A DNA stretch of 64,000 nucleotides from Lophium mytilinum (taxonomy: Eukaryota): contig MU004195.1 in NCBI GenBank assembly GCA_010093605.1, positions 496,001 to 560,000 of the forward strand, given 5' to 3'. The translations under genes and the position numbers were made by a program. The notes beneath the pieces were generated by a model. The model did no database searches. It was not told the DNA's origin and saw only the letters and a program-made list of their open reading frames with translations. Positions 231 to 51,756 of this stretch are shown here, piece by piece; positions within the stretch are counted from its first letter, which is position 1, and each line of letters starts with the position of its first letter.

Positions 231-275
231 GGTAGGTCCGAATTGAGGACGCCTCCCGCATGAAAGCCCCAGATT

Positions 276-1112: not shown

Positions 1113-1184
1113 TTTGTAGCGCGGTTCCGCCGGGCGGTCTCCGGGCAGGCCCTCAAAAAGGCCCCTTCGTCACGTGCTCGCTAG

Positions 1185-1745: not shown

Positions 1746-1974
1746 CCAGATCGACTTAGGCATCCCAATCATTTCCGCATTGTAAATAGTCCAGAGAAAC
1801 AGATGCGCCAAGTACTTCGCCTGCTTCTCTGGGCTCCGGGCTGGATTGTCTGTGGGAGGAGGTATGTAGTCCGCTGGTTCGTATTCTTGTCGGGGATATC
1901 GTCTCCAAAAGTTATGAAATAGGGCCCAGAACGCCGCGTCTGTGTTGTTGGATCTCGGATCCCAGCCTTTTGAA

Positions 1975-3731: not shown

Positions 3732-4109
3732 AAATTGCGTCGGCTCACTATATGTAGGTGAATACCATTCGTAAAGGATGTAAAATATAACCTGCCCAGC
3801 TTGCAAAGCGTACTTCTACTACAAGTGCGGTGCTGTATGCTCGACGGCCAACAAGGTATACTGTCACCTGGTCGAAAAGTATGAGACTTGTAGCGAAAGA
3901 TGTTCGAACAGGTGATACTGATTATATATCCATCATCTGTACCTAGAATGGCAGACTGATTATAGCAGATCACAGTCCATACCAAACGTTATCAATGTAC
4001 TGCACCAACACTAACCTCGCCGAAGCGAGCCCATGGTTGTTACAGCAAACGCCACCAAATCATCCCCAGTATCAAAGAAGCGCGTTTTGTCTCCTTTCCA
4101 GTACCCATC

Positions 4110-7238: not shown

Positions 7239-7559
7239 GTCAATAGCGCTTGCTTTCTCGAGATGTGAAGCCGACGACCTGCTTCAGTACTGACAGGCGA
7301 CTGGGATAGCGTTAGGAATGCGCAATGAGGAGTTCTGGTCATGGAATGACATGTATCGTTGTCTGTAGGGTGCGAAGGATAAGCTCAGATATTCCTATTG
7401 CGGCAGTTATATTGAACAATAAACGTAGTAGACGTCGCTAGCTTCTTTGCCGCGTTGCCTAATAGGAGTAGCTAGTATCTCTCGACTATAGATAAACAGC
7501 GTCGGAACTACGTTTAGCTTATTACCTATATATTTATATACGTTAAACTTAAGATATCA

Positions 7560-10075: not shown

Positions 10076-10559
10076 GAAGGCGGTTAAATGCAGGGTAGAC
10101 TGTAATGGCAGTAACTTTTTTCTAATAAGTCTGCCATTCCAACCCATTCATGTAAAGGACTGATCAATTATTCTCGCTTAACTTCCGGAACAGAATTAAG
10201 CACAGCCTATGCGGAACCCTTTGACCATTGGCTCAGCTTTCAGTGATGAAACGTGATTAAATTTACAGTATATTGGGGTAACAACTACAAAGACTTTCTG
10301 AAATAGCGATGGGAGCATGGATGAAGTTGTAAAGGTTGATGGCACAAAAAAGCCACCAAAGGTGGGCTGGCATCCGGGCTAGTAGGCCGAACAATGAATG
10401 AAAGAAACACCCGACTAAAAGAGATAGAAGTGTCACGAATGGAAACAAAGGAATAAAGACGTGGAATGACAATAGATTCCTATGTCTTTTAACTTACAAG
10501 AAATCACAGGCGGCACTTTCGGCTACTTACCTACTACCTAGCTCTATGCTGCTTTGTGG

Positions 10560-13848: not shown

Positions 13849-15552
13849 ATGTATCAGCGTTATTTCAGCTACGATGATTTCAATAGCTTCTCGCGCTCGC
13901 TTCTCTATTCACCATTCCCAATTCTACGTGTAGTTTCTCAATCCATTCTTTTATCGGGCTACCTTAGCTTGTATATACCTCTCCTGTCAATTCCTTCCTC
14001 AACCGTTCTTGGGTCGGATCTACACGGAATGAGTATCTCAAATGAAGAATTTGGTGGTCCGGATGAAGTATCGAGAAGTATTATACACTTCTACATTTCG
14101 TGCTGGTGGCTGAAAAATGTGGATTTGGGCTGGGAACATCCCGTACTTAAAGAAATTCAACACTTCATGAGCCCGGAGGGTCGAGACCATTTGGGTCGGT
14201 TGTTCATCAAATTGACGGAATTAGGTGGACACGAATATTCGACTGGAGTGGTTCGCCGATTGAGAAGCGATATGACCAGAAAATCGTCGATCTGGGTAAA
14301 TCGGAGGGTCGACGAGATGGCACACGAAGTCGACAACATAGTTATGAACTTCAACATACCCATACCCTCTTCCGTAAATGTTACCGATTTCTCGGGGCGG
14401 CTCTCGACTTTATGGACTTATGAAAAGCTCTCAGCATGGCGTCTGGTGTTGGACTCAGGACTGATCAGCCTCTAAAGTCGAGACAGCTGCGCCGCACTGG
14501 AAAAAACAACGAGGATGCTTCAGATGCTCTCATTCATTCTGAAAGAAGTGTTCAAGTCGCAAGAACGGATCAGAACCAAAACTCTGATTGACAAGTTGGA
14601 AGATTACACCAACCAACAGATCGCTCGAGAGCTCAAGGAAACATCGCCGGTTGACAACACTGAATCTCCGAGGTAGTCACTTACGTCTAGATTCCGTTCG
14701 AGTTCCTTCATCTGATTTCTAAACCTGCTGACCCATTTTCAGGTCAGAGGCTACCCACGAGTACGAGTCGGTTCGTGTAGTTCTCCTCGGATGGCAACAG
14801 AGCGACATCAAGGATTTGTCTCGCGAGCTCTACTATCTCGAATACACCTTCGAGCATTTATACCGCTACGAGACATATCGCTATGACATGCACAATGACA
14901 ACCCGAACGTCAATTTGGTCAACTTCCTGGGAACGAACGGATTTCTACCAAAATCGGGCTATACCGTACCGAAGCCCGAAGAGAAACAGCTGGTCATTGT
15001 GGTATACGGAGGGCATAGCGATCATAATAATGAATTCGCGCCGTAAGTATTTTCCCGCTTTCTGCAATCTTACCATCCCACCCATTAATCTGGCACAGGT
15101 ATCGGCACGGCAACTCGGCCCTCTTGAGATGGAAACCCGTCCAAATGAGGCTCATGCAGCAGCACTATGATCTACTGGTCATAGTAGACACTTGCCATGC
15201 TGGTCAACCCATTCGTTCAAGTGCTTCTTCGAAAAATATGGTCTTGGCCGCGTGTGCAGCTGAGGAATCGGCTTTCGAGACTGGTGAATTTGGATACTCT
15301 TTCTCAAAGATCCTCAACGACGAGCTCCGCGCGCATGCCGAACAGGGTCTACCAGTTTCCATCCGCGCTCTTGTCCACGATCGGCTACTGCCAATGTGGC
15401 AGCATGGCCAAGATTGCGCGTTGCAGCACTCCATCAGGCCAAATGCGCACACATGCCTGGAAACGATATTGCAGTCGACTCCGAGTTGCTCCGCGATACC
15501 AGCAGACGATCTATCCATCGATATTGTACTTGCGCCCTTGCCGAAATTCTGA
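13849..15552 (+). pseudogene. Protein with C-terminal caspase-like (C14-type fold) domain; one premature stop
   Basis: The reading frame continues past TAA at 14473; introns 14673-14742 and ~15043-15098. Motifs YESVRVVLLGW, LVIVVYGGHS (His), DLLVIVDTCHAG (Cys), MVLAAC, SFSKIL..EL. The true start is uncertain. Confidence 0.65.
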
Positions 15553-15824
15553 CATAACCAGGTTCTTCTGTATTCTCTATTGCAAAGATGAATCGGTCTT
15601 AATCAGCGACTCATCCAAATTCATCGCAAAAAGTGGCACATAACATTAAACACACTGGTATGCCCGCTTGGCTTCAAAGCTGATCACTATTTGCAACATT
15701 CAACATTCGAGACTCCCCGGACTAGCACGATTCTCGCGCATATACACACCACCGACAACCATTTCTCAACCATCACACGCACGCATGCTTGCTCCACCTC
15801 ATCCACCTTCACACACAGCCCACT

Positions 15825-18058
15825 TTATTTCGAATCATCCTCCGCATAACCCCTCCTCTGCACCGCCCTCCCCACAACATCATGCTCCGCATCCCACGCC
15901 GCCAGCTCCGCATTCGGCACCTTCACCAGCTGATGCGTCGTCGCCCCAGAGTCATCCAACACCAACACCGTTTGCCTAATCTCATACTTCCCCCACTTTG
16001 GCAATAGAGTGATCCAAATATAGTAGTATATTCCACAGAAAATGATACTGTCACCACCGTTAGCAGTCGCTCGCAGTTTCCAATCCCATAACCTTCTTGA
16101 GGTCGGGGCTTGGGTGGGGGTAACACGTACATTCCAATCCCAACCACACAATACGTGGCATACCAGAAGCTCACGTCGCCGCCGGTCGCGCCGCCCGCCG
16201 GCGGGTACCACGGCATTATGACGGCGTACAGGTTGGCGGCGATGCAGAAGTAGACGGCGACGTTCCAGGCGCGGAATTCGGCGGTGGGGAGGCCGACGCG
16301 CTTGCGGCGCCAGCGGTAGACGAGCAGGCCGAGGGCGAGGGTGAATTGGAAGAAGGAGGTGGGGTAGATTGCGAGGTCGATGACTGCGGGATGGGTCAGT
16401 CATGAAGAGGGGTGAGGGAACGAGATGGGGACGAACCGAAGTTGAACGCATCACCAGCCGGCGGCGCGATGATCATCAAGATCGTGAGCGCCCATTTCAG
16501 GAAGTAGGGGCCCAGTGGTGTGCCGAAGGGTCTTGTGGAGGTCCAGAATTTCGTGAAGGGGAGGACGCCTTGTCTACTAGGAGTCAGCATGCTTCAACCT
16601 CTCACTTCTACCGCGCACATGGGAAAGGGCACAACTCACCTCCCACATTCCCTGATAACCCGACTCTGTCCAACCAACACAGCCAGCAAGTTCCCAAACG
16701 CACTCATCATGATCAAGAAATTAAGCGCCTTCGCCGCTCCGCTAGTGCCAAAAACATTCTCGAAAAACACGCTTGCGGCGACGGCCTTGGATTTGAGGAT
16801 CTCTTCTTTCGAGGCGGCAGAGAAGTAGGCGATGTTTGCTAGCATGTAGAGAATCGTTGCCGTTATAAGTGAAAGGGGGGCGGACCATTTCAACGTCTTG
16901 ATAGGATTCTAAGGAGGGTGAGCGGAGGGGTTTGGGACGAGAAGAGGATGCAAGGGAAAGTGGGAAAAACAAACCTTGACTTCGTTGACGAGGTTGAAAG
17001 CGTTGTCGTACCCGGCGTAAGCGAAGATGACCTTGTAGATGGCGTTCGTGGCGCCGTAGGCTGTTGCGTCAGAGGAGCCTTCGAAGGCGTTGCGGAAGTT
17101 GGCCGTGGGGTCTTTGACTTTGGTGTGGCCGCCGAGGACGACTAGGCCGGTGATGCCAATGCTGACGATGGTTAGATGGGAAACAGCAAACCAAATCTTT
17201 CGGGGAGATTTACAAGATTAGAGTCAGGAGCTTGATGATTCCGATAGCGTTGGAAAGCCTGAGAGACCAGCGGGTGTTGAAGAGGAGAACTGTATTTCAC
17301 AGGTTTAATTCCATTCAATGCCTAGAGAGATTTTGGGGTAGACTTTGGGGTACTTACACAAAACGGCAACCGTGTACCCAGCAACGGCAACGCCTTTCTG
17401 CTCCCACGGACTCGGCGTGTGCCCAGCTAACTTGAATAGGTACTGTGCCAGCACTATGGCCCATGATTAGCTGCAGAACATACACTAGAGCCAAATGGCT
17501 TACCAATAGCATTACTGCTACTAAAAGAAAGGATGACAGTTTGCACCGCAAACACGGTCGGGAAGAAATATTTCGGGCGCGGATACGCCTGCTCAAGATA
17601 CGCGACCTCGGCCCCCGATCGGCTGGGGAAATACGACGCGAATTCCAGATACACACTGAGCGAGCTTGCTGCGATCAGGAATCCGATTACCCAGAAGAAT
17701 AGGGCAAGGCCGACGGAGCCGGTTCCTCGTAAGATGGTAGATGCTATGATCTCTTAGTTCAGTGAGCTGGCATACCGCGGCGAGGACGCAACTTACGCGT
17801 AGAGAAGATACCCGTCCCGATGATCTTGCTCAGATTCAAGAACAGAATGGTAACCCATCCAACGGTGTATCCGAGTGGCGACTTGACTTCAACCGGAGCG
17901 CCGCTAGCTTCCTGGTACGTAGGCAATGAGGTGTTCCCGCCCTCCTCGACGGTATACTTGAGGTTGCCATCACCAACGACTGCAGTGGTGTCGTACGCGC
18001 CATCATTGACTTGCCTTTGGGACTCGGCCGCATTCTTCTCGTAGTCGAATTGAGACAT
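15825..18058 (-). CDS. MUP1: High-affinity methionine permease-like APC amino-acid transporter (multi-exon)
   Basis: PTYQEASGAPVEVKSPLGY, IIGTGIFST, YLEFASYFPSRSGAEVAYLEQAYPRPKY, SAFGNLLAVLVGQSRVIRECGR, PPAGDAFNF, SFWYATYCVVG. Confidence 0.85.
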
Positions 18059-30757: not shown

Positions 30758-31699
30758 TCAGTTCAGCGGCGTTTGTTCGAGCACATCTTCAAGTGAACAA
30801 GAATATCCTGAGCAACTCACTTCCACTCGATTACTCAGTCTGGGATCATAGTCAGGCTGCTCCCACAGCGGCACAGCAGGAGCAATTCTACGGTAGCGTG
30901 CCGTATCTTCCAATCCAAAATCCCAGTCTCCTCGACCGAAGACAAAGTCGGCTTCCAGAGCATGCGTTCTCCGCCAGCGATTTGCGAAGTACTTGTTGAT
31001 CAGATCCTCGACATCCTCGTCGCCATTGTCGTCGACGTCGACAATAAGCGTTTCGCTCACGTGCTGTGAAATGAACCTCAATATGTACTCTAGCTAGTTG
31101 CCTCCAATCGCTCTTTCGCTATTAGTCAAGGTATTGTACGGCCATGGTCCAATGGAGTGGAAGAACCCATTCATGTTCGTGTGCTGCTTCGCTACGATGA
31201 CCAGTTTGGTCAAGCGGGCAAGGATCGGAGACCAGAGCTGGATGTCGATAAATGGCTTCCCGCCACCCTCCAGGACCAATTGCAGGTTGCATATATGTGC
31301 TATGTCGTCGGGACCGAGTTTTCTTTCGAGCAGTTCTCCGCCGTCGTAATTGAGCCGATACTGGAATGTGGTTTGCCGAGAGAGAACATCACCGGCTTCG
31401 AAGCGAATTTGGCTCGAAACACCGAGAAAGCCCATTCCAGGAGGTCTTACCTCATGTCGACGGTGGTCGTCAAGAAGGAAAAGGTCGATGAAGGAGTCCC
31501 GGGAGAGACAGTGGCGGTAAATCTCTATGCGTAGTTCCGCTGGCAGGTCGAGGAAGCCTGGAGATATCGATTTCGGCTTCGATGGACTTGGAGTCGAGCT
31601 CTTCTTCATGTCGACAACGGCCTTGTGACCTGCAAAGAAGACGGCCAGTATCCGAGCCAGATTCCGCATTCGATGCTGATCCCTGGAGTTGGATGCCAT
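30758..31699 (-). pseudogene. F-box-like (FLDLPAELRIEIY) protein with one in-frame stop
   Basis: The two ORFs share a frame and are separated only by TAG at 31096-31094 (N*LEYILRFI; probably TGG originally). Confidence 0.65.
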
Positions 31700-31912
31700 C
31701 TGCGATGGAGAGGAAGTCCCTTCTTTTCAAATATGTGGATAGTTGTCTACTCAAATACTGGGTTGAGCGCCGCGCGTTCAACAAAGTCAAGACTAGGCAG
31801 CGACATGAGAAATAGTCACGTGCCCAGTCTTGTGTATCAAGATTCAGCCCGAGGTGACATTCTATCTTCCAAGGTTGGTTGTTCCTTCTTGCAGTTGATT
31901 ATTCTACAATCA

Positions 31913-33727
31913 TCAGCCGATACTTGGGTGGAGGAAATCGAAGTTCTCCTTCAGCTGCGACACGACTCGTTCGAAGACCTCTTTCTGAAATGCCTCATCA
32001 TGGAGGTTGCTCGCCCGACAGTCAAAGTTACATCGGATACATCTCCGCACGGCGTCACTAAACTTATCTCCTGCCTCACTATACAAATCATCGACGATGC
32101 GGTCAGCTGTGTTCCACTGTGTCCTTAGGTCCACGCTGGCATCCCCCGAATCTATCGATCCGTCCTCTGGCTTGTGAAGCTCACAAAGGGACTTTCCATA
32201 CCAGAGTTCTATCAGAAATACTCCAAGGGAGAATAGGGTGGGATTGCGGATGATGCGACTCATTGAAGTGGGTATTTTGCTCGACTGAAATGGTGTTGAT
32301 GTCTGGCTGAAATGCTGCGAGACGAATGGGTGATTGTAAAGTATGCCGCCCGATCTTTCGATGAAGAACACATTCCCCTTTCCCCAATCTTCAAGCCAAG
32401 GGGTCTCATGAAGCTGTAGGACGCTGGAGGATAGGGTAACGGCCAATTGAAGCCGATCCTGACGGGTGAACTTTGGGTCTTGCAAGACCTGTCGAATAGA
32501 CGCAACATTCCATGACTCGGGATTCATTGGCGGATCCTGGTGGGGATATATCAGGATGCCGTACTTCTGCTTCGCATATTCTTCAATAAGGAAAGGCAGG
32601 CAAACATCTCGTTGAGGCTTTTGGAGTGCACTGATGGCTGCGCATAAATTTTGAATTGGCTGAAGGTTCGGATGCGGATCGAGGGCGGCCTTCACAGCTT
32701 TCTTTGCCTGGGCTGCGAATCGAACCCCTTTGGTGCCACCAGCCGGACAAGGCTGCGGTTGAGGTGAAAGTGTCTGCTGGAGTTTGATCCGCACCTCGGC
32801 CTCCTCCCAAATCCAGGGAGACGCGGCGGGAGGGCTGGAGAGTCCAGAATGCGAATGGCTGTATCGAAATAAAACATGAAATGGATCGCGCATGTTCTCA
32901 TTGTCGCTGTCGCTTTCGTCGTCGCTTGGCATATCTTCCATTCGAGACTCTAGGCGGAGATTGACGCTGTGGTCCGCATGGCAAGGGCACTTCCACCCGG
33001 AGCTCAACGCGGAGTAGAAACCTTGAGCGCGATCATGGATGACGTTGAATTTCGGCATGGTCTGGCGGTACGACTTGGCGTTAGCACTGTTGAGGTTTCC
33101 AAGAGAAATGGTCTGAGTGGTCATTCGGTAGAGCCCAAGATTTGCTGCTCGAATCGATTGCATTACATCATCATAGTCGCTTTTCTTAAGGCTGAAGCAC
33201 AGCCTCTTGTAATGCTCTTTGAAAGCGCTGTGATCATAGAACTGAGGCTGATGAGAATTAGAGCGGTCACGTGACGTTTGTTGAGATGTGAGACCTCGGG
33301 ATCAAGTGAGACATCGAAAGTTGAGGGTAAAACATACCTTGCCAGACCCATCAAGCTTCAGTCTCTGCAAGAACTTACTCACAGCTGCGTCCATCGATTC
33401 AATGGTGTCGATGTACGATTCGTAGGTAGTGCCAAGACGGTCCTTCAGTTTCTTCTCAAACTTCGCGTCCTTCCATCGCGTCCCACGTGGATCTTTCAGA
33501 AAGTCCGCCATCTCTCTCGGTTTAACGACACCAATGAGCAGCATGTTGATCGAGTTCAGGCACATCGTGCTTTCACACTTCAGCTCCACGGCAAGGCCCT
33601 TGATCCCTTCTCGGTACTTCCAATACCGTTTGGAGACGGCGATTCCTTTACCGTAGAACTCCAGTCCAGCGAGGATGAGCGGAATCGAGCCGAGGACGAG
33701 CCCCGCTGTCTCAACGCCAGTCACCAT
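31913..33727 (-). CDS. HeLo-like N-terminal + degenerate kinase-like C-terminal (DUF7580-type) protein
   Basis: MVTGVETAGLVLGSIPLILAGLEFY N-terminus; intron 33337-33248; WKCPCHADHSVNLRLE; RLQLAVTLSSSVLQLHETPWL, IRNPTLFSLGVFLIELWYG, DAVRRCIRCNFD. Confidence 0.75.
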
Positions 33728-33962
33728 GATGTTAATGGGATTGTTGAAGGAGGGAAGGAGGTAATTGTCAGACAAGGCTGAGAGAGGAGCTGAAGACGTG
33801 GCGGGTCACGGAAGAAGCGGGGTGCTCCTTTGGCCCCCAAATTTGGAGGCTGAGAAGTGATATCGCAGGCTATCGCTAACGACCATCACCATTCTAAACC
33901 TCACGGAAACTCTCCCCTTCTTCAGGACTCCAGAAGACACAATTCCGTGGCATGCGTGAAAT

Positions 33963-36900
33963 ATGGAAACCCTCCATCTTGCTTCCCAGGTCACCGACTG
34001 TGGACGCGACTTTCGGAGCCTTGGTGAAGCACTGAAGCAAGTTCCCCGTTTCGCGGCGCAAGTGTCACCAGAAAAGATCAACGATGAGTTCGATAGGTTC
34101 AAGATATGGGCTGGAAACGTTGCTGCCCACAGAAAAGGGCGGCGAAGTTTAGAGTATCGCCTTCGCGATGCAGTTCATCTCAAGAATGAAGCAGGCGAGC
34201 TTCTTACAGCCTTGCAAGAATCTCTGAACAACAGTAAGTAATTCTGAGGAATCAAATATATGAAACCATCACTCATGCAATACTAGCTCTGAGCATTGTT
34301 ACTGGAGAGAAAGTACCATGGGATGAGATGTCTGATTCTGATACAGATTCCGGTACTGAAGCTGGTTCTCCGGAGCCCGACACGAGAGCGCTGGAAGATG
34401 AAACGGAGTTGAAGCAATTATTCTCTGGAATACGAGACACGATAAGTTGCCTTTTTCGCCTTTCGATGGCTATCCGAAATCCTGCCCCAAATACCCAATC
34501 CGGCAGTACCATCACTGCGGACAAATCCTACTACGAAGACTACGATATTGAACACGTGAGGGCAAAATTCCACGAGGAGAAGTTCCACAATTGCGACAAA
34601 GTCTTGATGGAACGACTGGGCAGAGCCATCTCAGCTCGGCGTCAGTATTTGAGTTATCGCGAAGAGCATTATAAGAAGTTGGCAAAAGGAGTCGAGAAAA
34701 TTGGATTCGAAGAGGCAAGGACTGAACAAACGGCGAACAGCACTGAAGCATCACCCATGCCAAAACTCCTCGGCACTCCTACAGATGATAATAGATTAGT
34801 TGAGGATAAGCTGGTCGATGACGGAGAAGATGACTTATCTCAATCGTCCCGTGCTACATCAACGAATGCGACGATCCGGGTGCCCTCTTTGCCGAAGGAG
34901 TCATTAGAAAACGAACACTACGAATGTCCCCTTTGTTTCATGATCGTTTCCATACACACGAGACCGGCTTGGAAGTACGGCATTTCCCGATTCTTCGCAA
35001 GACGTGTTGCTGACCGCTCACAGGGAACATGTGTACCGCGACCTTCATCCTTACGCTTGCACGTTCAAGCACTGCAATACAGCCGACCGCCTGTATGATT
35101 CTCGGAGAGCATGGTTCAAGCATGAAATGGAAGCCCACAGAGCTGTATGGCAATGCATAGAGGGGTGTGAGAAGGCGTTTCCTTCAGAAAATGACTTTGT
35201 ACAACATGCCCAGCGAGCACACCCTGAAGTTGCTTCTCAAGAAGCCATAGCGATCTTGAAGAAGACCTCGATACGAAGCGCATACGGGACGGATAAAGCC
35301 AGCTGTCCGATATGTGACCAGTCCATGAGTCTTCGGGCTCTGCAAAAACATTTGGGTCGCCATCAAGAGCAGCTGGCACTGTTCGCACTGCCGGTCAATG
35401 AGGACGACGCTGAAGATGAAGATGATGGCCCAAACTCCACTGAAGAACCAGAGCAGCAAGAATCGGGTGACCAGCGCTTCGAAAGAACTAGCTCAAGTTC
35501 TGAAGATGAAGACGTTGACATACCGGCCGTCCGCGACCATACCACCGATCGATTCAAGACCATAGGGTATGAGTACATTCCGCGCGAGTTCGACGAGGCC
35601 GGCGAGAAGAAAGTGACGGTCACTGGGTATCTGCTGGACGGCCGCGAGTATAAGTGCCGGACATTCTTCACCCTGAACAGAGGCGATAAGCTATTTATGC
35701 TCGCAACGGAGTGTGCTCGCGTATTAGGTTACAGCCACTCCGACTTTCTCTTCAAGGAGAACAGGTCGCTGTACAAAATCATTGCTACACAGGTTGACAA
35801 GGACGACCTTATCCGACAAGAAATACTGCCATACTCGTACCGGTCGCGCCAGATCGCACTTGTGACCGCCCGGTCTATGTTCCGGCAGTTCGGCAGCAGA
35901 CTTGTTTTGAATGGAAGACCTGTCCGCGACGATTATTGGGAGAGCAAGGCTAGAAAGCAAGAATCTGCAGCCGATGGAGCCCCGCTCTCTCCCGTCTCCC
36001 CCGATTCAGGTCCCACAGACCCAAACCTCCCCAAAGTGCCTTCCGGGTGGATGTCTCAATGGGATAATCTGTAGGTCCCTCCTTCCCCTCCTCCGACCAA
36101 CGATTTCCTTCCCCTTCATACCTCAGTGCTATCCACCGCGCATACGTGTTCTTTCACTAGATAATCGCTTACACCCGTTATCTTTACTAGCTACCCCGAA
36201 CACTACTACAGCCAATTCGCTTCCGGCGCCTCCCAGTGGACTATCCCTACCTTCGTCGCGCCTACCGCGCGCCCGGCGCTTCGCCCGCTGGCACACCGGC
36301 CCAGCGTAGGACTAGAACCAAGCGAAGGCCAGACGGAGCGTGACCAAAGCAAGAACAATCGCAGCAACGGTGATGAAACAAGTGTTGAAAAGACAATCGA
36401 AAGCCGCGTTGCTCGCATCAAAGCTCGTGTCGCTGGACTCACTGGTGATGCGAAAGTCGAGCAGGAGGATTTTGATACAGTCTTGGCGGCCGATAATGGC
36501 AAGTTCAGATGGCCACATCTCCCGGAGGCTGGGCGAGATGGGAAGGAGTTTGCGTGTCCGTACTGCTCTATGATTATCAGGGTTGACAGCCAAAGTTGGA
36601 AGTAAGTACCCTACAAACCCCGAATAAGGGATGCCTAATTCTGACCATTTGTTAGAAAGCATGTGTATTCGGACCTTGGGCCTTATATCGCGACTGGAAA
36701 TGCCGAGAAACAAGCTGCAGATGAGGTCACCGAGAGCACGAAGACAGTACACAAGGGAGCTGACACCAAATCTACAACTGAATCCGAGCAGACAGCAGTT
36801 CCAACAGCTGCAGATAATTCTAGAGTCACAGATAAGCTTCAGCATCTCTTCGAACCTTCGCCGAGAGATACGGGAGACTTCGACGATGGCGTTAACAAAT

Positions 36901-37654
36901 CCGCTCCCGCCAGTACGGTTGCTTCAGACCTGCTTGAGCATATTACCGAGCAGGTGCGCGGCCAGCTGCTGAATGACTCGAAGGGAAAGGGCGCTGAAGA
37001 TGGCGCTATCCGTACTCAGGAAGCAGATGACGATTGGGAATTTTCCACTACCACTAAAAAGGACAAGAAGGGCAAGAAAGGGGCTAGTGAAGTTGTTCAT
37101 GAGCCGCTTGTAGAGGTATCACCACCAGCAGAGCCGATTCCAGCTGCAAGAGACAATTCGGAATCCTTCGCTAAGGGCGACGAGGACAAGGGGAAGAAGC
37201 GGCGACATGAGCTCGAGGACGCCGTGAGCAAGGCCCTCAAGATCCACCCTACCTACACCAAAATCCACAAGGATCACCTCTCTATGGACACCCTACTTTA
37301 CTATGAGATTCCGTGGGAATATGACAAGGTTTGTTGCCTTCTTTCCGCAGTATCCCTTCGCTACTACTTTCACTGAATTGTGCTAACCTCTATCGTTAGC
37401 ACGACCACGATTACTTCGTCATCCTGCGCGAACTGGATGAGCGCGACACAGACGTGTTGTTCGAGCACACGCGCCGCCTTCGCTCCAGGGATACTTCTCG
37501 CCTCCTACCGATCGAAGAGCGCACCCGCCACGGCAATCCTGAGTACGCGTGGGTGCGGCACAAGGAGCGCCAGCCAAGTAGGAGTCCAGGCCGAAGACTC
37601 AGCTTGCCGACAAGGGCTGTTGGGATCGGGAGTATGCCAGAGAAGAAGAAGTAG
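33963..37654 (+). CDS. Mosaic C2H2 zinc-finger protein with Rsc7/Swp82-like, WW and additional domains (6 exons)
   Basis: RFKIWAGNVAAH..SLEYRLRDA N-terminus; YECPLCF..W|EHVYRDLHPYACTF..C; CPIC..LQKHLGRHQEQLALFALP; Rsc7/Swp82-like block ~35570-35960; WW motif split by an intron (VPSGW..QWD|..YY...SGASQWTIP); second FACPYC..W|KHVYSDLGPY; C-terminal PTYTKIHKDHLS.DTL.YY.IPWEYD..LFEHTRRLR. Confidence 0.75.
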
Positions 37655-38107: not shown

Positions 38108-39930
38108 ACTACCACATCCGCCAGATGGCGATGGCGAGGGCGGCGAGGAGCTAGTAGGTGAGTTGGCGGGGGGCCGATAGGAGGGGGTGCGTGGATTCGC
38201 GCATTGTCAGGATGGGTTTGCTGGGTTTGGAGGTGGTGGAGATGGATTATGGTGGTGATGTGGTTTGTGGGGGGAAATAGGTTAGGGTTGAGATGGAAGG
38301 TGTTGGGGTGGGTACAGTTGACGCACTTGAACCGTGGTTGGTGAACTCGAGGTTGAAAATCGACTGCCCTGACGTGCGAGCTTGCACAGTGCTTTATTGG
38401 GGGTCCTTCGATGAGGATTATCGGACCCGAAAATTCTCAAGATATGATATTGCAACCTTGATGAAAAGAACATTTCCCCTGAGTCGGAGCTCATTTGTTG
38501 AGAGTTTGGGGCTTCACAGCCCTCGTCGAAGCGCCGCTGGCAGTGTCACCGTCTGTACAGATTTGTGAGAAGGTACTGTACCTCTGGATGTTTTTGAAAA
38601 TAAATGTCTGATCCTGGGCTGTGTCTTGTAAGCACCAAGCAAAGCCTGGTGGTTTTGAACATCCCGAACGAGAATTCGATGTCTGGTGGCATCGACGTGG
38701 ACGACCTGCACTACAACCAGGAAACGGAGCATAGTTCTTTCGTCCGGGGATCTGAGGGTCTGAAACCTTGTTGAAGGACGCCCCGCAGTGTCGTAACAGA
38801 AGCCAAACTCCTGAGTTCAGCGTGGATTGGATCTAGAGACGAGCAAATTCGATAGAAAGGATAGCAAGAGCTCAGACAAGAACCTCGAACAAAAACCTAA
38901 CGCAGTCGTCCCCGAAGTGCATGCTCTCAAGACGCCGGAAGCCGTAGCGTTCCTCAAACTCCATTAACAACCGATTCGTGAATGCAGCAACCGCAGTCGT
39001 ATCCCCACCTCTCCTCATCCCTTCTACCAGTCCAGCCGCCACGGGGAGGGGTCCAGCATGTCTTTGTGGCCTTGGGCTTGTGGGCGGGCGATTCGACGCA
39101 AGGGTGGTTGGGGGTGGATGCAGGGGGCTTGCTGCAAAAGGGAACTCACCCTGCTCAGTCTCGGCTCAGATGCGCTCAGTCTTGGCTCAGGATGCACAGC
39201 CACAGCTCAGCAAGGATTCAAGAGCGCACCCACTACACTTCCAAGAGATATCAAGGTTAAGCTAATACTAAGGGATAGGGCTCTAGCTAAAATTTCTTAA
39301 AGATTGCTAAGTAGAGGACTGTGGATATACAAAGGTATGTGTAATTGATGATAGCCAGGTGGAGAGACCATGATTTTCATACTGATACTGAAAACTGAGA
39401 AGACCCGGGTTATAGGCAGACGACTACGAGACAGAAGAAGAGGCCGTGTTATCCTGTTCGGTTTCTAATGCGGAGACATAGCTTAGGTGCGGATTTGGGA
39501 TGCATGCATCAGGCAGCAATGACGCGAGTAGCTCTCACCGGTGAAGCAGCGCGTCAGAGAACTAGCCAATAACCTACAAAGGAACACGTGTTACGCAGAT
39601 ACGCTGTCCTTTGCCTTCCAGTTGTTCGGACGGTCGATCGCTTGCAGAGTGCCTAGGCCCTCAGCCTGACTGCGCCTACTGTCGAAAAAGAAACGAACCC
39701 CGTATTATCTCTCAATGCTTGTAATCTATACAACTTGACCAAGGTCTGCATGTGCAAAATATCCTCGTATATCACTTCTCAGTGTTTGAAAAACCTGTCC
39801 GGATCTCTTCTTTCTTTTCTTCAAGGACTAGTTCGCATTGCAAATTATCACTGACCCGTCGTACACTTCTCTACTCCATCTACTCTCGCGTACCTATACA
39901 ATACTGCCCCTAGGCCTACAGCTCCATAAC

Positions 39931-41742
39931 ATGAGTACTCAATTGAATGGCTTATATGCAGAATGCATTCTGCCTCTCAACAAACCAACGATACGAGTCT
40001 TATACCTAAAGCCAGGACATGAAAGCGACGAGATTCAGGCACACTTACGGCTTTTGGATATTGATACGGATCTATCTCCTCAATATGAAAGCTTGTCTTA
40101 TGTCTGGGGAGACCCCGCATTCACTAAACGAGTCATCATCAACGAGCATTTTATCGAAATCAGGAAGAATCTATATGGTGCTCTTCGCCATATCAGGTCC
40201 AAGACAGAGACGTTGATCATTTGGGCGGACGCCATCTGTATAAATCAGTCGGACATGGATGAAAAATCACATCAAGTTGCCCTCATGGCAGAAATCTATC
40301 GTCGGTGTTCGAAAGTATATATATGGCTGGGATTGCCTGAACCTGGCAGCCTCACAGGCGATCCATTTGAGTTCTTGAACCATTTTGTACAGGGGAAACA
40401 CTTTTATGAATTTCCCGGTTTCGATCGCGATGAATCAACTGGATGTTTCACCTGGAAAGAGAATGAAGCCTGTGACAAAATCCTGAACGATTTCCTCCAA
40501 ATCGTCGGAAGTCCATGGTGGACAAGGGCCTGGACTGTTCAAGAATGCCTATTACCAAAAGAGACTGTGATCATGTTTGGAACATGGGCAGTAACATGGG
40601 AATACATCCAAAGAGCTGGTTACATGAAGAATACTCATGGCGATGGTCCAACGAAGTGTTGCGTACAAGCCAATACTGTTTTTAATCCTCATCAGCTGCA
40701 TTTGATTAACGAATGGATGTGGCATCCTTGCTGGGCAGAAGGATATAGGCAGACAATACATGGAAGAAACCCAACGCCACAATGGTTCTACCAAGCCCTA
40801 CTGGCATTCTCAAGTCGACAATGTTCAGACCCTCGCGACAAGATATACTCTCTGCTCTCCTTGGCCACGCACCCAGTTTACCGGGACTTCAAGCCGAATT
40901 ACCGCGACGATCTCCCAACAATATGCACCGATGTATTCACTCGCATGGTTCAAGAAACCGATGGCAGCTTCGATTGTTTCATGGGAGGAGGATTTGGATC
41001 TTCAATGTCGGGTCTTCCATCATGGGTTCGGGATTTCTCGCAAATTAGAGCTGCAGGAGTTATTGCCGGCGAGCAACGAAGGATCTGGTATGCCTCGCTC
41101 TATCGAGCGTCTCTCACGTCACCCGTTCCGGTCCAATGGAACGAAAACAGAGAATTCCATTACAGAGGTACTTACGCAGACACAATCACGGCCGTTGGGC
41201 AACATATGTCTACTTCACATATGTCCACACTAAAACCGAACTTTGGTCCAGTCTTCCGCCAATGGCTTGACCTTTGCCAAGATACAATGGCCACTTGCGA
41301 ACCCCGGGTACTCCGCACCACATTTTCACGTATAATTTGCGGAGATGTGTGCAAAAATGTTGAAGGAGATGCAGAGTTCAGGAGAGCTATTGAAACAGAC
41401 TTTCCCCAAAAGCATACTTGGGATCAGATCATGGACGGTGATATTTGTGCTGCGGATGCACGAGGTTATGGTTGGGGCCTAAACTTTGCCATGTGGGGCA
41501 GATGTTTTTTCACTACTTACTCCAGCAGAATGGGATTATGTCATCCAAACACACGTGCAGGGGATGAAGTGTGGGTTATGAGAGGTGTTCAGGTGCCATT
41601 TGTTGTCCGACCTCTTGAGCACGCTGATGCAGGATGTTCTGGTAGATATTCCCTTGTTGGCGATTGTTTTTTAGATGGCGCTATGGATGGTGAGGTAGAG
41701 GAAAAAGAGAAATCGACGGAACGGCCTATAGTTATGATTTAG
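39931..41742 (+). CDS. HET-domain protein (HET-6-like), intact and intronless
   Basis: IRVLYLKPG, YESLSYVWG, NLYGALRHIR, IWADAICINQSDMDEKSHQVALMAEIY, PWWTRAWTVQE, CSDPRDKIYSLL, LPSWVRDFS, GDEVWV..G..VPFVVRP, YSLVGDCFLDGAMDGE. Confidence 0.92.
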   Translation: MSTQLNGLYAECILPLNKPTIRVLYLKPGHESDEIQAHLRLLDIDTDLSPQYESLSYVWGDPAFTKRVIINEHFIEIRKNLYGALRHIRSKTETLIIWADAICINQSDMDEKSHQVALMAEIYRRCSKVYIWLGLPEPGSLTGDPFEFLNHFVQGKHFYEFPGFDRDESTGCFTWKENEACDKILNDFLQIVGSPWWTRAWTVQECLLPKETVIMFGTWAVTWEYIQRAGYMKNTHGDGPTKCCVQANTVFNPHQLHLINEWMWHPCWAEGYRQTIHGRNPTPQWFYQALLAFSSRQCSDPRDKIYSLLSLATHPVYRDFKPNYRDDLPTICTDVFTRMVQETDGSFDCFMGGGFGSSMSGLPSWVRDFSQIRAAGVIAGEQRRIWYASLYRASLTSPVPVQWNENREFHYRGTYADTITAVGQHMSTSHMSTLKPNFGPVFRQWLDLCQDTMATCEPRVLRTTFSRIICGDVCKNVEGDAEFRRAIETDFPQKHTWDQIMDGDICAADARGYGWGLNFAMWGRCFFTTYSSRMGLCHPNTRAGDEVWVMRGVQVPFVVRPLEHADAGCSGRYSLVGDCFLDGAMDGEVEEKEKSTERPIVMI

Positions 41743-50570: not shown

Positions 50571-50919
50571 TGCACCATCGACTGTACTTCGCGATTTCGG
50601 CCGTCTCCGCTCCGGCACTTGCTACAGCTTTCTCGAAAACGATAGATCGATCGGGAGTGTTTGCCGACGGATACTGACAGAGCGCATCGCTCCACGGCTG
50701 GAGCTACTAGTCCGGCCTAATGGCAGGGCATTACGGCTAGTCCCCTTGCATCTATAGCTATACTGACTAAGCGCTCTAGCAACAAATATAACGTCTTTCT
50801 TACAGCATCTATCTACGATATGCAACCTTTTGTATTGCAGCAACAAAGCAAAACATTCACCGCTTGGTGCACACATTAACCCCATTTCCTGCTCTCCTCT
50901 ACAACCTCAAGCAGCAGAG

Positions 50920-51756
50920 ATGGCAATCAACAACTCGGGAAACCTAGCTTTGCTAATTGATGGCGACAACGTCTCGTCCAAGATCATCGTCGGCCTTATG
51001 GCTGAGATCGCAAACTACGGCACGGCCAGCGTGCGACGCATCTACGGCGACTGGACCAAACCCGACCTCAAGGGCTGGAAAACCCGCCTGCTAGACCACT
51101 CGATACTGCCGATGCAGCAATTCGCATACACCACCGGCAAGAACTCCACCGACGGTGCCATGATCATCGACGCCATGGACCTGATGTACACCGGCCGCTT
51201 CTCCAGCTTCTGTATCGTCTCGAGCGACAGCGACTTCACGCGCCTTGCGGCCCGCATCCGCGAGCAAGGCATCACGGTCTACGGCTTTGGAGAGCGAAAG
51301 ACCAACTCTGCGTTTATTGCGGCCTGCGACAAATTCGTGTACTTCGACGTGCTCAAAGTGCCGGTGTACGAGTCTGAGGAGCCGCTTGCTGCACTTCAAA
51401 AACTCACACTCAGGGCGACTACTACACCTGAACCAACTGCACGACCGTGGGCACTTGCGCGTGTGGAACCGTCGAAAAGGCAGATCGATCAGGCGGCGCT
51501 CGACGGATTGGCAAATGCGGTGAGGAATACCGTTGGCTACGACGAAAATTACGCCAACCTAGCCGAAGTTGGCACATATCTAAGCAAGATCTCGCCCGAC
51601 CTGAACGCGCGCAACTACGGCTATGAGCGCCTTCGGGAATTTGTGCAAGCGTCCGGAATTGTGAACCTGAAGTGGAAGGACATGGGAGACAGTGCTCCGA
51701 TTGCCCTAGTACGTCTCAAAGAAAATCTGGAGAATACTAACTCCCGGACTTCCTAA
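50920..51756 (+). CDS. NYN (LabA/DUF88 PIN-fold) domain + C-terminal OST-HTH/LOTUS protein
   Basis: LALLIDGDN, RRIYGDW, GKNSTDGAMIIDAMD, IVSSDSDFTRLA.RIRE.G..VYGFG, ACDKF; C-terminal LAEVGTYLSKISPDLNARNYGYERLREFV. Intronless. Confidence 0.92.
   Translation: MAINNSGNLALLIDGDNVSSKIIVGLMAEIANYGTASVRRIYGDWTKPDLKGWKTRLLDHSILPMQQFAYTTGKNSTDGAMIIDAMDLMYTGRFSSFCIVSSDSDFTRLAARIREQGITVYGFGERKTNSAFIAACDKFVYFDVLKVPVYESEEPLAALQKLTLRATTTPEPTARPWALARVEPSKRQIDQAALDGLANAVRNTVGYDENYANLAEVGTYLSKISPDLNARNYGYERLREFVQASGIVNLKWKDMGDSAPIALVRLKENLENTNSRTS

What the first reader, a model, noticed from the sequence alone, without database searches (positions are those of the whole stretch)
31913..37654. Head-to-head pair resembling a sensor/executor immune module
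Seen: the ATGs at 33727 (-) and 33963 (+) are only ~235 bp apart, and both genes look intact in a region full of decayed immunity genes. The left gene has an amphipathic HeLo-like N-terminus (GVETAGLVLGSIPLILAGLEFY) plus a degenerate kinase-like C-terminus, an MLKL-like layout. The right gene has a conserved helical/zinc-finger N-half followed by a patchwork of unrelated domains. Known: HeLo/HELL domains are fungal membrane-targeting death effectors, and plant paired NLRs (RRS1/RPS4, RGA5/RGA4) are divergent pairs with integrated decoys. Inference: a non-NLR fungal guard system in which the zinc-finger protein presents baits and controls the HeLo-like partner.
Basis: partly seen in the sequence, partly recalled or inferred. 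Interest (0 to 1): 0.75.

Follow-up and report, generated by a model that had tools for sequence, protein, structure and literature searches.

The report
Fungal MLKL-like gene with zinc-finger partner
Two back-to-back fungal genes, one resembling the animal cell-death protein MLKL and one a zinc-finger protein whose tail carries different borrowed domains in different species, stay together across many fungi and are predicted to bind each other, which makes them a good candidate for an undescribed sensor-and-killer immune pair.

Summary
Two intact genes start 235 bp apart on opposite strands (ATGs 33727- and 33963+). They match the public models P0002 and P0121. Contigs of run X1 join across five of their six introns.

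The left gene (574 aa) has a confident N-terminal helical bundle that starts with a conserved glycine-rich hydrophobic helix. Behind it lies Pfam DUF7580, whose model resembles a kinase C-lobe without catalytic motifs. The layout is MLKL-like by fold only; no HeLo or kinase HMM matches.

The right gene (1114 aa) has a conserved 440-aa front half: a four-helix bundle plus AcuF-type C2H2 fingers. Its tail is a mosaic holding the Rsc7 core, a WW-like motif, a partial finger duplicate and a DUF8035-like end.

- **Linkage:** it is conserved on the same contig for 23 of 36 right-gene homologs, and head-to-head in 10 of 12 assessable metagenome loci.
- **Trees:** both gene trees place Monosporascus among Pleosporales.
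- **Binding:** a cognate pair is predicted to bind, with score 0.78 against a best control of 0.00.
- **Tails:** they differ between close relatives and, family-wide, include NACHT, ankyrin, TPR and WD40.

A sensor/executor death module is the best reading (about 0.5). Toxicity, bait function and any immune role are untested. I found no paper describing it.

The parts
33338..33727 (-). Left gene, exon 1 (130 aa). It encodes the Gly-rich hydrophobic N-terminal helix and most of the N-terminal helical bundle.
   Evidence: The exon matches the N-termini of P0002 and P0001. The bundle, residues 1-188, is modelled at pLDDT 76-94. Residues 1-30 are the best-conserved stretch: 0.82 against 0.68 overall. 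No Pfam family matches. In the Atlas feature search, 5 of 30 hits fall in clusters where 29% of members carry HeLo.
33248..33337 (-). Left gene intron (GTATGT ... CTAAT ... CAG).
   Evidence: The sequence is shown. The junction equals that of P0002 and P0001. A 10-nt loose end of an X1 contig at 33338 fits the start of exon 2.
31913..33247 (-). Left gene, exon 2 (444 aa plus stop). It holds the end of the bundle and DUF7580, a degenerate kinase-like domain that spans about 31940-33040.
   Evidence: Pfam PF24476 matches at E 8.9e-28. All 47 of 47 orthologs match it, and none matches a kinase family. Model residues 367-540 align to the C-lobes of CTR1 (Z 7.1), Roco4 (6.9), the rat MLKL pseudokinase (6.7) and RIP1 (6.3).
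33728..33962 (.). A 235-bp shared upstream region between the two start codons.
   Evidence: Searches show the sequence. One X1 contig runs through it from left exon 1 into right exons 1-3. A contig across two genes does not show a single transcript.
33963..35400 (+). Right gene, conserved N-half (aa 1 to about 445). It comprises exon 1, exon 2 and the first part of exon 3. It holds a four-helix bundle (aa 1-160), a helical linker and AcuF-type C2H2 fingers (aa about 296-440). Introns are at 34234-34286 and 34975-35023.
   Evidence: Homology to all 35 other homologs ends at aa 443-530 of P0121. P0121 carries PF26082 in the precomputed annotation. Both introns are joined across by an X1 contig.
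35520..35960 (+). Integrated Rsc7/Swp82 (Npl6) core domain, in the same exon as the zinc fingers.
   Evidence: PF08624 matches at E 1.5e-47. The copy is 82% identical over 147 aa to residues 67-213 of the stand-alone Npl6 P0157, and nothing else is shared. It is 72-80% identical to the 120 stand-alone homologs listed. The same X1 contig covers the N-half and this domain up to 36023.
36027..36239 (+). WW-like motif, split by the predicted intron 3 (36071-36190).
   Evidence: P0121 reads ...PSGWMSQWDNL|YPEHYYSQFASGASQWTIP. A source names P0121 'WW domain-containing protein'. Pfam WW was not reported at E<=0.001. The intron rests on the public model, on the motif and on an exon-4 frame that is open for 137 codons with no ATG before about 36570.
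36432..36695 (+). Partial internal duplicate of the pre-finger region and the first zinc knuckle. Its intron (36602-36655) sits at the same codon position and phase as intron 2.
   Evidence: P0121 aa 750-819 aligns to aa about 160-350 of the N-half of 34 of the 35 homologs at 26-45% identity. The shared phase can be read from the sequence.
37236..37507 (+). DUF8035-like C-terminal module, with an intron at 37329-37399. The gene ends at 37654.
   Evidence: P0121 aa about 1000-1066 is 41-63% identical to parts of 7 of the 35 homologs. Ten homologs carry PF26118 in the precomputed annotation. The label for the window copy is recalled by eye, not called by an HMM.

Best explanation
This is a two-gene module read outward from a shared 235-bp region.

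**The left protein as executor.** It has a four-helix-bundle N-domain that begins with a strongly conserved glycine-rich hydrophobic helix. A linker joins it to a catalytically dead kinase-like domain (DUF7580). This is the layout of MLKL.

**The right protein as sensor.** Its conserved 440-aa front half (helical bundle plus AcuF-type zinc fingers) is predicted to clasp both the bundle and the kinase-like C-lobe of the executor. Its tail carries domains copied from housekeeping proteins. Here that is the core of the chromatin-remodelling subunit Rsc7/Npl6 plus a WW-like motif.

**Proposed mechanism.** At rest the pair forms a heterodimer that keeps the executor's N-domain inactive. When something binds, modifies or destroys the tail domain, the clasp opens. 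The candidates are a product of a virus, bacterium or rival fungus. The executor then oligomerises, goes to a membrane and kills or arrests the cell.

**Shown by computation.**
- The gene models and the spliced forms.
- The folds at moderate confidence.
- The conserved head-to-head linkage and the congruent gene trees.
- The predicted binding and the tail variability.

**Inferred.**
- The direction of control (inhibitor rather than activator).
- Membrane attack.
- Bait function and immune role.
For: **Linkage.**
- 23 of 36 right-gene homologs share contig length and organism with a listed left-gene homolog.
- Consecutive locus tags occur in two Monosporascus assemblies, in Kalmusia and in Neocucurbitaria.
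- The partner lies head-to-head in 10 of 12 assessable metagenome loci. L002 and L003 are near-duplicates, so this is 9 of 11 distinct loci. The count includes pairs of 27-40% identity.

**Co-inheritance.** The left and right trees both put Monosporascus (a Sordariomycete) inside a Pleosporales clade, with SH-aLRT 100 and 92-100.

**Predicted binding.**
- ipSAE was 0.78 in three runs (0.79, 0.78, 0.78), against 0.00 for the best of 3 controls.
- The runs agree in at least 69% of contacts, and the partner's pLDDT is at least 67.
- The mark was reached by 51 of 78 solved complexes and 2 of 108 mismatched pairs. On eukaryotes the figures are 39 of 65 and 2 of 126.
- No solved relative of the left protein exists by sequence, so a pass from memory is unlikely.

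**MLKL-like layout.**
- Full-length MLKL 4btf aligns at Z 7.9 over residues 6-539 (257 aligned, rmsd 15.6).
- The N-domain aligns to AtMLKL3 (Z 7.3), the MLKL N-terminal domain (7.0), NRG1.1 (6.8) and HET-S (6.6).
- The C-part aligns to kinase C-lobes at Z 6.1-7.1.

**Atlas lead.** 5 of 30 feature hits for the left N-terminus lie in clusters where 29% of members carry HeLo (score 0.95).

**Tails.**
- Among the 36 close homologs the shared part ends at about aa 445. Tails carry BAG, SH3, Myb, DnaJ, ULD_2, homeodomain, RRM, Drf_GBD, Zn_clus or Rsc7.
- Of 141 further representatives of the family, 39 carry extra domains of about 25 families. These include NACHT-type NPHP3_N, ankyrin, TPR and WD40.
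- Only the folded Rsc7 core was captured, at 82% identity to a stand-alone Npl6.
- A distant relative, P0279, carries a separately diverged Rsc7 core at another position.

**Partner-less copies.** L007 and the L005/L012/L013 group lack the N-terminal exon, and L013 has broken frames.

**Family dynamics.** PF26082 is listed among copy-number-overdispersed families, alongside HET, in a Neurospora pangenome paper (passage read).
Against: - **No sequence-level homology.** HeLo, HELL, SesA and protein-kinase HMMs do not match the window protein or any of 47 orthologs, even at E<=5. The PDB sequence search found nothing. Foldseek gave no match at E<=0.001.
- **Weak fold specificity.** The structural Z-scores (6.6-10.8) lie in the range the tool says helical bundles reach by chance. 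The partner's unrelated N-terminal bundle gives nearly the same list of matches. The 'death-domain' call therefore has low specificity.
- **No interface conservation signal.** Predicted interface residues are not more conserved than the rest: left 0.675 against 0.683 (p 0.68), right 0.677 against 0.612 (p 0.051).
- **High conservation of the left protein.** It is 44-80% identical over its full length across orders. That is unlike many fast-evolving immune genes.
- **Recurrent tail modules.** BAG is found in 8 of 36 close homologs. DUF8035 is found in about 16 of 36, counting Pfam annotation and BLAST together. These modules could have a fixed function rather than act as baits.
- **An exception to linkage.** One full-length left-gene relative (L015) has no partner within 10 kb upstream.
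- **Possible annotation artefacts.** Many tails come from automatic gene models that may merge neighbouring genes. Only the window's N-half-to-Rsc7 continuity is checked against DNA and a spliced contig.
- **No functional data exist.**
Confidence: 0.5

Rival explanations
1. The pair is a conserved regulatory or proteostasis complex with no role in cell death or immunity. The zinc-finger protein is a scaffold or adaptor. Its tail (BAG, DnaJ, ubiquitin-like, SH3, WW or chromatin readers) sends the kinase-like partner to different clients. The two genes are co-regulated from a bidirectional promoter.
For: - The left protein is well conserved and of constant length.
- BAG, DnaJ and ULD_2 tails all point to Hsp70 and ubiquitin systems.
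- No death-domain or kinase HMM matches.
- The predicted binding fits any stable heterodimer.
Against: - The distribution is patchy, and both trees place Monosporascus among Pleosporales and Talaromyces beside Zopfia. That is unusual for a core housekeeping complex.
- The N-half is also fused to NACHT, ankyrin, TPR and WD40, which are typical of fungal receptor proteins.
- The best-conserved part of the left protein is a glycine-rich hydrophobic N-terminal helix.
Confidence: 0.25
2. The pair is a selfish or allorecognition element of the toxin-antidote type. The left protein is a latent toxin and the right protein its antidote. The module spreads or persists because loss of the antidote is lethal, and it serves incompatibility or drive rather than pathogen sensing.
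For: - The linkage is tight and the orientation divergent.
- The pair appears to have been transferred together into unrelated classes.
- Partner-less copies lack the N-terminal exon.
- The predicted clasp covers both domains of the left protein.
- A HET-domain gene lies 2 kb away.
Against: - This reading does not explain why the antidote should collect varied housekeeping domains.
- An intact solo left gene exists, L015.
- The left gene is highly conserved rather than allelically diverse, though no population data were examined.
Confidence: 0.15
3. The gene pair is real, but the tail patchwork is neutral. The 3' end of the zinc-finger gene lies in unstable DNA and picks up fragments of other genes, or gene predictors merge neighbours. 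These tails would have no sensing role.
For: - The window tail contains a truncated duplicate of the gene's own finger region and low-complexity spacers.
- Orphan WD40 and TPR frames nearby suggest a rearranging region.
- Three of the close homologs are 'partial' models.
Against: - The Rsc7 core is captured with exact domain borders, stays in frame in the same exon as the fingers and keeps 82% identity to stand-alone Npl6.
- A second relative carries the same core.
- All six exons keep an open frame of 1114 codons.
- X1 contigs join introns 4 and 5 in the tail on the + strand.
Confidence: 0.1

Closest known systems
MLKL (animal necroptosis executioner) and plant MLKLs
   Same: Both have an N-terminal four-helix bundle followed by a non-catalytic kinase-like domain. 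Full-length mouse MLKL aligns over both parts of the model (4btf: Z 7.9, 257 residues, rmsd 15.6). The C-part matches TKL-type kinase C-lobes, including the rat MLKL pseudokinase at Z 6.7.
   Different: There is no sequence-level similarity. The kinase N-lobe is poorly modelled and carries an invariant Cys/His motif instead of the ATP-site motifs. The predicted controller is a bound zinc-finger protein encoded next door, not an upstream kinase such as RIPK3. That MLKL is controlled by RIPK3 is taken from passages of PMC12881547.
Fungal HeLo/HELL executioners and their two-gene clusters (het-S/nwd2; gasdermin/protease)
   Same: A putative membrane-targeting executor lies beside a gene for its controller. 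The controller family has variable sensor parts that include NACHT, ANK, TPR and WD40. The two-gene logic is described in passages of PMC10197012. A review notes that some HELL domains are fused to kinase or pseudokinase domains (passage of PMC12881547).
   Different: No HeLo, HELL or SesA HMM matches. I saw no amyloid signalling motif at the left C-terminus; this was by eye and not formally scanned. Coupling is predicted to be a direct heterodimer rather than amyloid templating or proteolysis. Most partners lack a nucleotide-binding domain.
Plant paired NLRs with integrated decoys (RGA5/RGA4, RRS1/RPS4)
   Same: The genes are head-to-head. One member carries varied integrated domains copied from host proteins. 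The other is the conserved executor with a helical-bundle N-domain. The sensor is proposed to restrain the executor. Details of the plant pairs are recalled, not read here.
   Different: Neither window protein has an NB-ARC or NACHT domain or leucine-rich repeats. The executor is kinase-like, not an NLR. Putative integrated decoys in fungal NLRs have been reported for Sordariales (passages of PMC12258605), but not for this family.
Pfam DUF7580 (PF24476) and zf-C2H2_AcuF (PF26082)
   Same: The window proteins are members of these two families.
   Different: Neither family has a described function. 'DUF7580' occurs in 0 papers of the library. PF26082 occurs in one paper, as a copy-number-variable family.

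Membership tests
Pfam DUF7580 (PF24476) | A match to the family HMM above the gathering score. | tested here: met
   Exon 2 scores 98.3 bits (cut-off 27), E 8.9e-28, over profile positions 7-316 of 319. All 47 of 47 orthologs match.
Pfam zf-C2H2_AcuF (PF26082) | A match to the family HMM. | tested here: met
   P0121, which is identical to the window protein, carries PF26082.1 in the precomputed annotation, as do 32 of the 35 other homologs. The local hmmscan copy reported no PF26082 or PF26118 match for any of these proteins, so I could not re-score it.
HeLo (PF14479) / HELL = PigL_N (PF17111) / SesA (PF17107) | A sequence match to one of the family HMMs. | tested here: not met
   No hit for exon 1 at E<=1. 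No hit for any of 47 full-length orthologs at E<=5.
HeLo/HELL/MLKL-4HB/RPW8-CC superfamily (fold level) | A four-helix bundle with an N-terminal helix that can be released into a membrane. | tested here: inconclusive
   A confident helical bundle spans residues 1-188. It aligns to Sw-5b SD (Z 10.8), Rx-CC (8.9), AtMLKL3 (7.3), the MLKL N-terminal domain (7.0), NRG1.1 (6.8) and HET-S (6.6). Generic bundles score as high, and the partner's bundle gives the same list. In the Atlas feature search, 5 of 30 hits lie in clusters with HeLo on 29% of members. Membrane insertion is not testable here.
Protein kinase superfamily (as a pseudokinase) | A bilobal kinase fold. For an active kinase, also the VAIK, HRD and DFG motifs. 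| tested here: inconclusive
   No Pkinase or PK_Tyr_Ser-Thr hit. Model residues 367-540 align to the C-lobes of CTR1, Roco4, MLKL, WNK3, RIP1, MEK1, TNNI3K and RIPK2 at Z 6.1-7.1. The N-lobe region, residues 190-330, has pLDDT below 55. By eye, no DFG or conserved HRD appears in the consensus.
NLR / STAND receptors | A central NACHT or NB-ARC nucleotide-binding domain. | tested here: not met
   No such domain is found in either window protein. Two of 141 distant relatives of the right N-half do carry NPHP3_N: P0281 and P0414.
Rsc7/Swp82 (CRC_subunit, PF08624) | A match to the family HMM. A genuine subunit also has the flanking regions of Npl6. | tested here: met
   The domain matches at E 1.5e-47. 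Only the core, residues 67-213 of P0157, is present. It is therefore an integrated domain, not an Npl6 ortholog.
WW domain (PF00397) | A match to the family HMM: two Trp about 20-22 residues apart and a Pro. | tested here: inconclusive
   It was not reported for P0121 at E<=0.001. The W..W..P pattern is visible, and one source names the protein 'WW domain-containing'.

The most novel reading that the evidence does not exclude
The zinc-finger N-half is a dedicated clamp and adaptor for an MLKL-like executioner. Together they would form a large, mostly NLR-independent 'integrated-decoy' immune receptor class in filamentous fungi. The profile of the zinc-finger protein finds 10,943 representative clusters, though how many have a DUF7580 neighbour is unknown. 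Tails copied from chromatin, chaperone, RNA-binding and signalling proteins would act as baits for effectors of viruses, bacteria or mycoparasites. The whole two-gene unit would move between fungal classes by horizontal transfer, much as bacterial defence systems do.
Probability: 0.35. Interest if true: 0.85.

Novelty: new variant of a known kind. Interest (0 to 1): 0.72.

Why it matters
**What fungal regulated cell death is known from.** So far it rests on a handful of systems: HET-S/NWD2, HELLP, gasdermin/protease pairs and HET domains. What triggers their sensors is stated as a major open question (passage of PMC12881547).

**What this pair would add.**
- A third kind of two-gene death module, coupled by direct protein binding.
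- A fungal protein with the full MLKL layout, together with its likely controller.
- A set of borrowed domains (Rsc7, BAG, DnaJ, Myb, RRM, SH3, WW, Macro and others) that each name a candidate target of fungal pathogens. This makes the trigger question experimentally approachable.

**What it would assign.** It would give two large families of unknown function their first working hypothesis: DUF7580 and zf-C2H2_AcuF. 'DUF7580' occurs in none of the papers searched.

Tried and rejected
- **Whole genome.** None is held for this window, so paralog counts and the genome's own Npl6 gene could not be checked. No Lophium Npl6 appears among the best 120 of 752 hits; this is uninformative.
- Searches failed on my frame errors and were corrected.
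- **Foldseek against PDB.** There was nothing at E<=0.001; the best kinase row was JAK2 JH2 at E 0.39.
- **PDB sequence search with the left profile.** 0 hits at E<=10.
- **Pfam HeLo, HELL, SesA and Pkinase.** No hits.
- **hhalign of the left against the right alignment.** No homology, probability 0.4%. The two bundles are not detectably paralogous.
- **Conservation of predicted interface residues.** They are not enriched.
- **Atlas on the right N-terminus.** It found only unnamed clusters below 0.9. One structural row reached TM 0.49 to the PigL_N part of an NLR cluster, which the tool marks as under the bar.
- **Sequencing runs.**
  - No RNA holder is listed. The single holder, X1, is of unrecorded kind.
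  - No X1 contig covers 32870-33257 or 36168-36361. Intron 3 (36071-36190), and with it the junction between the Rsc7 part and the tail, is therefore not bridged.
- **Earlier findings of this scan.** Nothing was relevant by place, words or sequence.
- **Literature.**
  - 'DUF7580' occurs in 0 papers.
  - 'acuF-like', 'PF26082', 'DUF8035' and 'PF26118' together occur in 1 paper.
  - 'fungal MLKL', 'MLKL-like', 'HeLo-like', 'Pezizomycotina' and 'zinc finger' with at least 3 terms found only the NLR N-termini paper. That paper has no occurrence of 'zinc' or 'C2H2'.
  - Supplements of these papers were not opened and might list these families.
- **Metagenome loci that could not be assessed for a partner.** Eight loci were set aside because the flank was too short or the gene start was off the contig or undetected: L004, L005, L006, L011, L012, L014, L017 and L021.
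- **Gene fusion as a pure annotation artefact for the window.** I considered and rejected this. The fingers and the Rsc7 core share one uninterrupted exon.

Full report
**1. What is in the sequence**

The window is fungal. The best matches are 99-100% identical to named proteins of a Dothideomycete, Lophium mytilinum (P0002 and P0121).

The left gene, on the minus strand:
- It starts at the ATG at 33727. It has one intron (33337-33248, GTATGT...CAG) and stops at 31913, giving 574 aa.
- The public model P0002 has the same start and junction. It also removes a further 114 aa that every ortholog keeps, so the longer model is preferred.

The right gene, on the plus strand:
- It starts at 33963 and has six exons: 33963-34233, 34287-34974, 35024-36070, 36191-36601, 36656-37328 and 37400-37654.
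- These give 1114 aa, identical to public protein P0121.

Support from run X1:
- X1 is the only public run that holds this DNA, and its kind is not on record. Its contigs join across GT..AG introns 1, 2, 4 and 5 of the right gene.
- One 2594-nt contig runs from left exon 1 through the 235-bp spacer into right exons 1-3.
- That contig ends with 10 letters that fit the spliced start of left exon 2.
- Spliced forms of both genes therefore exist, and the zinc-finger half and the Rsc7 domain lie on one spliced contig.

Intron 3 (36071-36190) is not bridged by any contig. It rests on three things:
- the public model;
- a WW-like motif that reads through the junction;
- an exon-4 frame that is open for 137 codons with no in-frame ATG before about 36570.

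**2. The left protein**

- Exon 2 is Pfam DUF7580 (E 8.9e-28). Exon 1 has no Pfam family.
- Full-length orthologs of 560-605 aa, 44-80% identical, occur across Pleosporales and Mytilinidiales. They also occur in one Talaromyces and several Monosporascus assemblies.
- The first 30 residues form a glycine-rich hydrophobic helix (G4, E6, G9, L10, L12 and P16 are invariant). They are the best-conserved stretch: 0.82 against 0.68 overall.

The AlphaFold model of the 80%-identical ortholog P0001 (mean pLDDT 68) shows three regions:
- a confident helical bundle at residues 1-188 (pLDDT 76-94);
- a poorly modelled middle, residues 190-330;
- a moderately confident C-terminal part.

Structure comparisons:
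- Foldseek found nothing significant.
- The exhaustive aligner matched the bundle to plant CC and SD domains, MLKL and AtMLKL3 N-domains, NRG1.1 and HET-S at Z 6.6-10.8.
- It matched residues 367-540 to C-lobes of TKL-type kinases at Z 6.1-7.1. These include the rat MLKL pseudokinase and RIP1.
- Full-length mouse MLKL aligned over both parts at Z 7.9.
- The tool warns that helical bundles reach such Z by chance. The partner's own N-terminal bundle gave almost the same list.

Other evidence:
- A language-model look-up placed 5 of 30 nearest clusters in a set where 29% of members carry HeLo.
- No HeLo, HELL, SesA or kinase HMM matches the window protein or any of 47 orthologs.
- No solved structure matches by sequence.

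The 'MLKL-like layout' is therefore supported at fold level only. The protein is not a demonstrated member of the HeLo or kinase families.

**3. The right protein**

All 35 other homologs share only the first 443-530 residues with P0121. That front half ends in the motif ...RHQEQLALFALP. The model of P0122 shows three elements:
- an N-terminal four-helix bundle at residues 1-160;
- further helices;
- a zinc-finger region at residues 289-435, annotated PF26082 zf-C2H2_AcuF.

The window tail then contains four pieces:
- (a) The Rsc7/Swp82 core (E 1.5e-47). It is 82% identical over exactly 147 aa to residues 67-213 of a stand-alone Npl6, and shares nothing else with it.
- (b) A WW-like motif.
- (c) A partial copy of the gene's own pre-finger region and first zinc knuckle, with an intron at the same codon position and phase as intron 2.
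- (d) A tail that 7 of 35 homologs share at 41-63% identity. It resembles the PF26118 module annotated on ten homologs.

**4. Linkage**

- For 23 of the 36 right-gene homologs, a left-gene homolog of the same organism is listed on a contig of the same length. The other 13 have none among the 120 of 178 left hits that were listed, which says nothing about absence.
- Four pairs have consecutive locus tags: DL765_004072/73, DL769_006801/02, N0V90_010982/83 and N0V83_005415/16.

A scan of metagenome contigs with the left alignment gave 22 loci. I tested each with tblastn:

| Class | Number | Loci |
|---|---|---|
| Could not be assessed (short flank, or gene start off the contig or undetected) | 8 | L004, L005, L006, L011, L012, L014, L017, L021 |
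| Lack the N-terminal exon, with no partner in 4.5-8.4 kb upstream | 2 | L007, L013 |
| Partner on the opposite strand, 160-750 bp upstream | 10 | L001, L002, L003, L008, L009, L010, L016, L018, L019, L022 |
| No such partner | 2 | L015, L020 |

- L002 and L003 are near-duplicates.
- Four of the ten paired loci hold pairs that are only 27-41% identical to the query.
- L015 is an intact solo copy. L020 has two tandem left paralogs, with a right-family gene about 8 kb downstream.
- L005, L012 and L013 share upstream sequence and look like one decaying locus.

**5. Co-inheritance**

- In the left tree (47 rows), six Monosporascus sequences form one clade. It sits inside a clade with SH-aLRT 100 that also holds six Pleosporales genera. 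Talaromyces is sister to Zopfia, with support 99.
- In the right N-half tree (36 rows, 431 columns), Monosporascus again sits with Lophiostoma (support 100). That group lies inside a clade with five Pleosporales genera (support 92).
- The trees are midpoint-rooted and no donor test was run. The two genes show the same unexpected placement, as expected if the pair was inherited or transferred as a unit.

**6. Predicted binding**

The cognate Mytilinidion pair was tested: P0001 full length with P0122 residues 1-430.
- It scored ipSAE 0.78 in three runs (0.79, 0.78, 0.78), against 0.00 for the best of three controls.
- The runs agree in at least 69% of contacts, and the partner's pLDDT is at least 67.
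- In the tool's calibration the mark was reached by 51 of 78 solved complexes and 2 of 108 mismatched pairs. On eukaryotes the figures were 39 of 65 and 2 of 126. Among blind neighbouring genes, 7 of 44 passed.
- On the left protein, the contacts involve bundle helices 33-66 and 163-178. They also involve the kinase-like C-lobe and C-terminal helix (391-396, 458-464, 502-543, 565-569).
- On the partner, they involve its bundle (37-53, 72-83), helix 129-160 and finger region 333-403.

The model supports binding but does not show it. The interface residues are not more conserved than the rest.

**7. Tail variability**

Among the 36 close homologs (432-1719 aa), Pfam found the following at E<=0.001:
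- BAG in 8;
- Rsc7, SH3, Myb, ULD_2, homeodomain, RRM, Drf_GBD, DnaJ and Zn_clus in one to three each;
- no extra domain in 17.

Close relatives in the tree carry different tails.

A profile of alignment A2, which includes some tail columns, was searched against 1.84 billion representatives:
- It found 10,943 proteins at E<=0.001 and 2,262 at E<=1e-30.
- The best 150 all score below E 1e-112 and are 233-2111 aa long.

Of the 141 new proteins, 39 carry extra domains of about 25 families at E<=1e-5:
- receptor-type parts: NPHP3_N (NACHT type), ankyrin, TPR and WD40;
- others: Pkinase, Macro, MIT, WW, ARID, Chromo, PHD, RhoGEF, PAH and a second Rsc7 core.

That second Rsc7 core (P0279) sits at another position. 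It is only 48% identical both to the window copy and to stand-alone Npl6, while the N-halves are 42% identical. This fits a separate or much older capture.

**8. Interpretation**

The best-supported reading is a sensor/executor pair:
- an MLKL-like protein is held by the conserved half of a zinc-finger protein;
- the variable tail of that zinc-finger protein is the sensing part.

Three things remain inference:
- the direction of control;
- the killing activity;
- the immune role.

The main counter-arguments:
- there is no sequence homology to death domains;
- the bundle matches are generic;
- the left gene is highly conserved;
- the BAG and DUF8035 tails recur and may have a fixed function;
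- many tails rest on automatic gene models.

**9. Comparison with the literature**

- Reviews describe fungal two-gene death clusters. One notes that some HELL domains are fused to kinase or pseudokinase domains (passages of PMC10197012 and PMC12881547).
- Putative integrated decoys have been proposed for Sordariales NLRs (passages of PMC12258605).
- PF26082 is listed as a copy-number-variable family alongside HET (passage of PMC13412767).
- No paper in the library mentions DUF7580. None links an MLKL-like fungal protein to a zinc-finger partner.

I therefore rate this a new variant of a known kind.

Noticed in passing
related proteins P0010, P0018-P0026 (left) and P0133, P0140, P0145 (right): Both gene trees place Monosporascus (Sordariomycetes) inside Pleosporales clades. 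The left tree also places Talaromyces proteolyticus beside Zopfia (SH-aLRT 99-100). This suggests horizontal transfer of the pair. The trees are midpoint-rooted and no donor test was run.
   Followed up: partly
window 32580-32610 and 31990-32010 region (left protein residues about 215-223 and 533-536 in P0001 numbering): The left protein has invariant W215, C217, C219 and near-invariant H223 (motif GWKCPCHADH), plus invariant C533 and C536 (RRCIRC). These may form a metal site linking the poorly modelled N-lobe to the C-terminal helices. I could not check whether they lie close together in the model.
   Followed up: no
window 2295-3251 (+) and 8696-10072 (+): A 319-aa WD40 frame and a 459-aa frame with TPR_10/TPR_12 repeats stand without any NACHT or NB-ARC in frames of 110 aa or more within 1-16500.
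   Followed up: partly
window 39832-41739 (+) and 50767-51753 (+): A 636-aa frame with a HET domain (E 3.2e-29) lies 2 kb downstream of the right gene. A NYN + OST-HTH/LOTUS frame lies further on.
   Followed up: no
window 31097-31726 (-): A small frame directly downstream of the left gene has a weak F-box-like match (E 6.5e-4, below the cut-off).
   Followed up: no
window 34975-35023 and 36602-36655: Introns 2 and 4 of the right gene interrupt the same codon (after TGG AA, phase 2) of two copies of the first zinc knuckle. The tail copy therefore arose by duplication of genomic DNA, not of a processed transcript.
   Followed up: partly
proteins P0281, P0414, P0396, P0404, P0402, P0346: Relatives of the zinc-finger N-half are fused to NPHP3_N (NACHT type) with or without ankyrin, to TPR, or to ankyrin + cytochrome b5 + WD40. 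The N-half can therefore serve as the N-terminal module of NLR-like receptors.
   Followed up: no
L020 938-5691 and 11728-13645: Two tandem paralogs of the left gene lie on one strand. A right-family gene lies about 8 kb downstream on the other strand. This is a different arrangement from the usual head-to-head pair.
   Followed up: partly
L007 6558-7640: The partner-less left-gene copy that lacks its N-terminal exon has, upstream, a reading frame that looks kinase-like by eye. I did not run it against Pfam.
   Followed up: no
window 61562-62744 (+): A sugar-transporter gene is read in two overlapping frames (61562-62218 and 62118-62744). This could be an intron or a frameshift.
   Followed up: no
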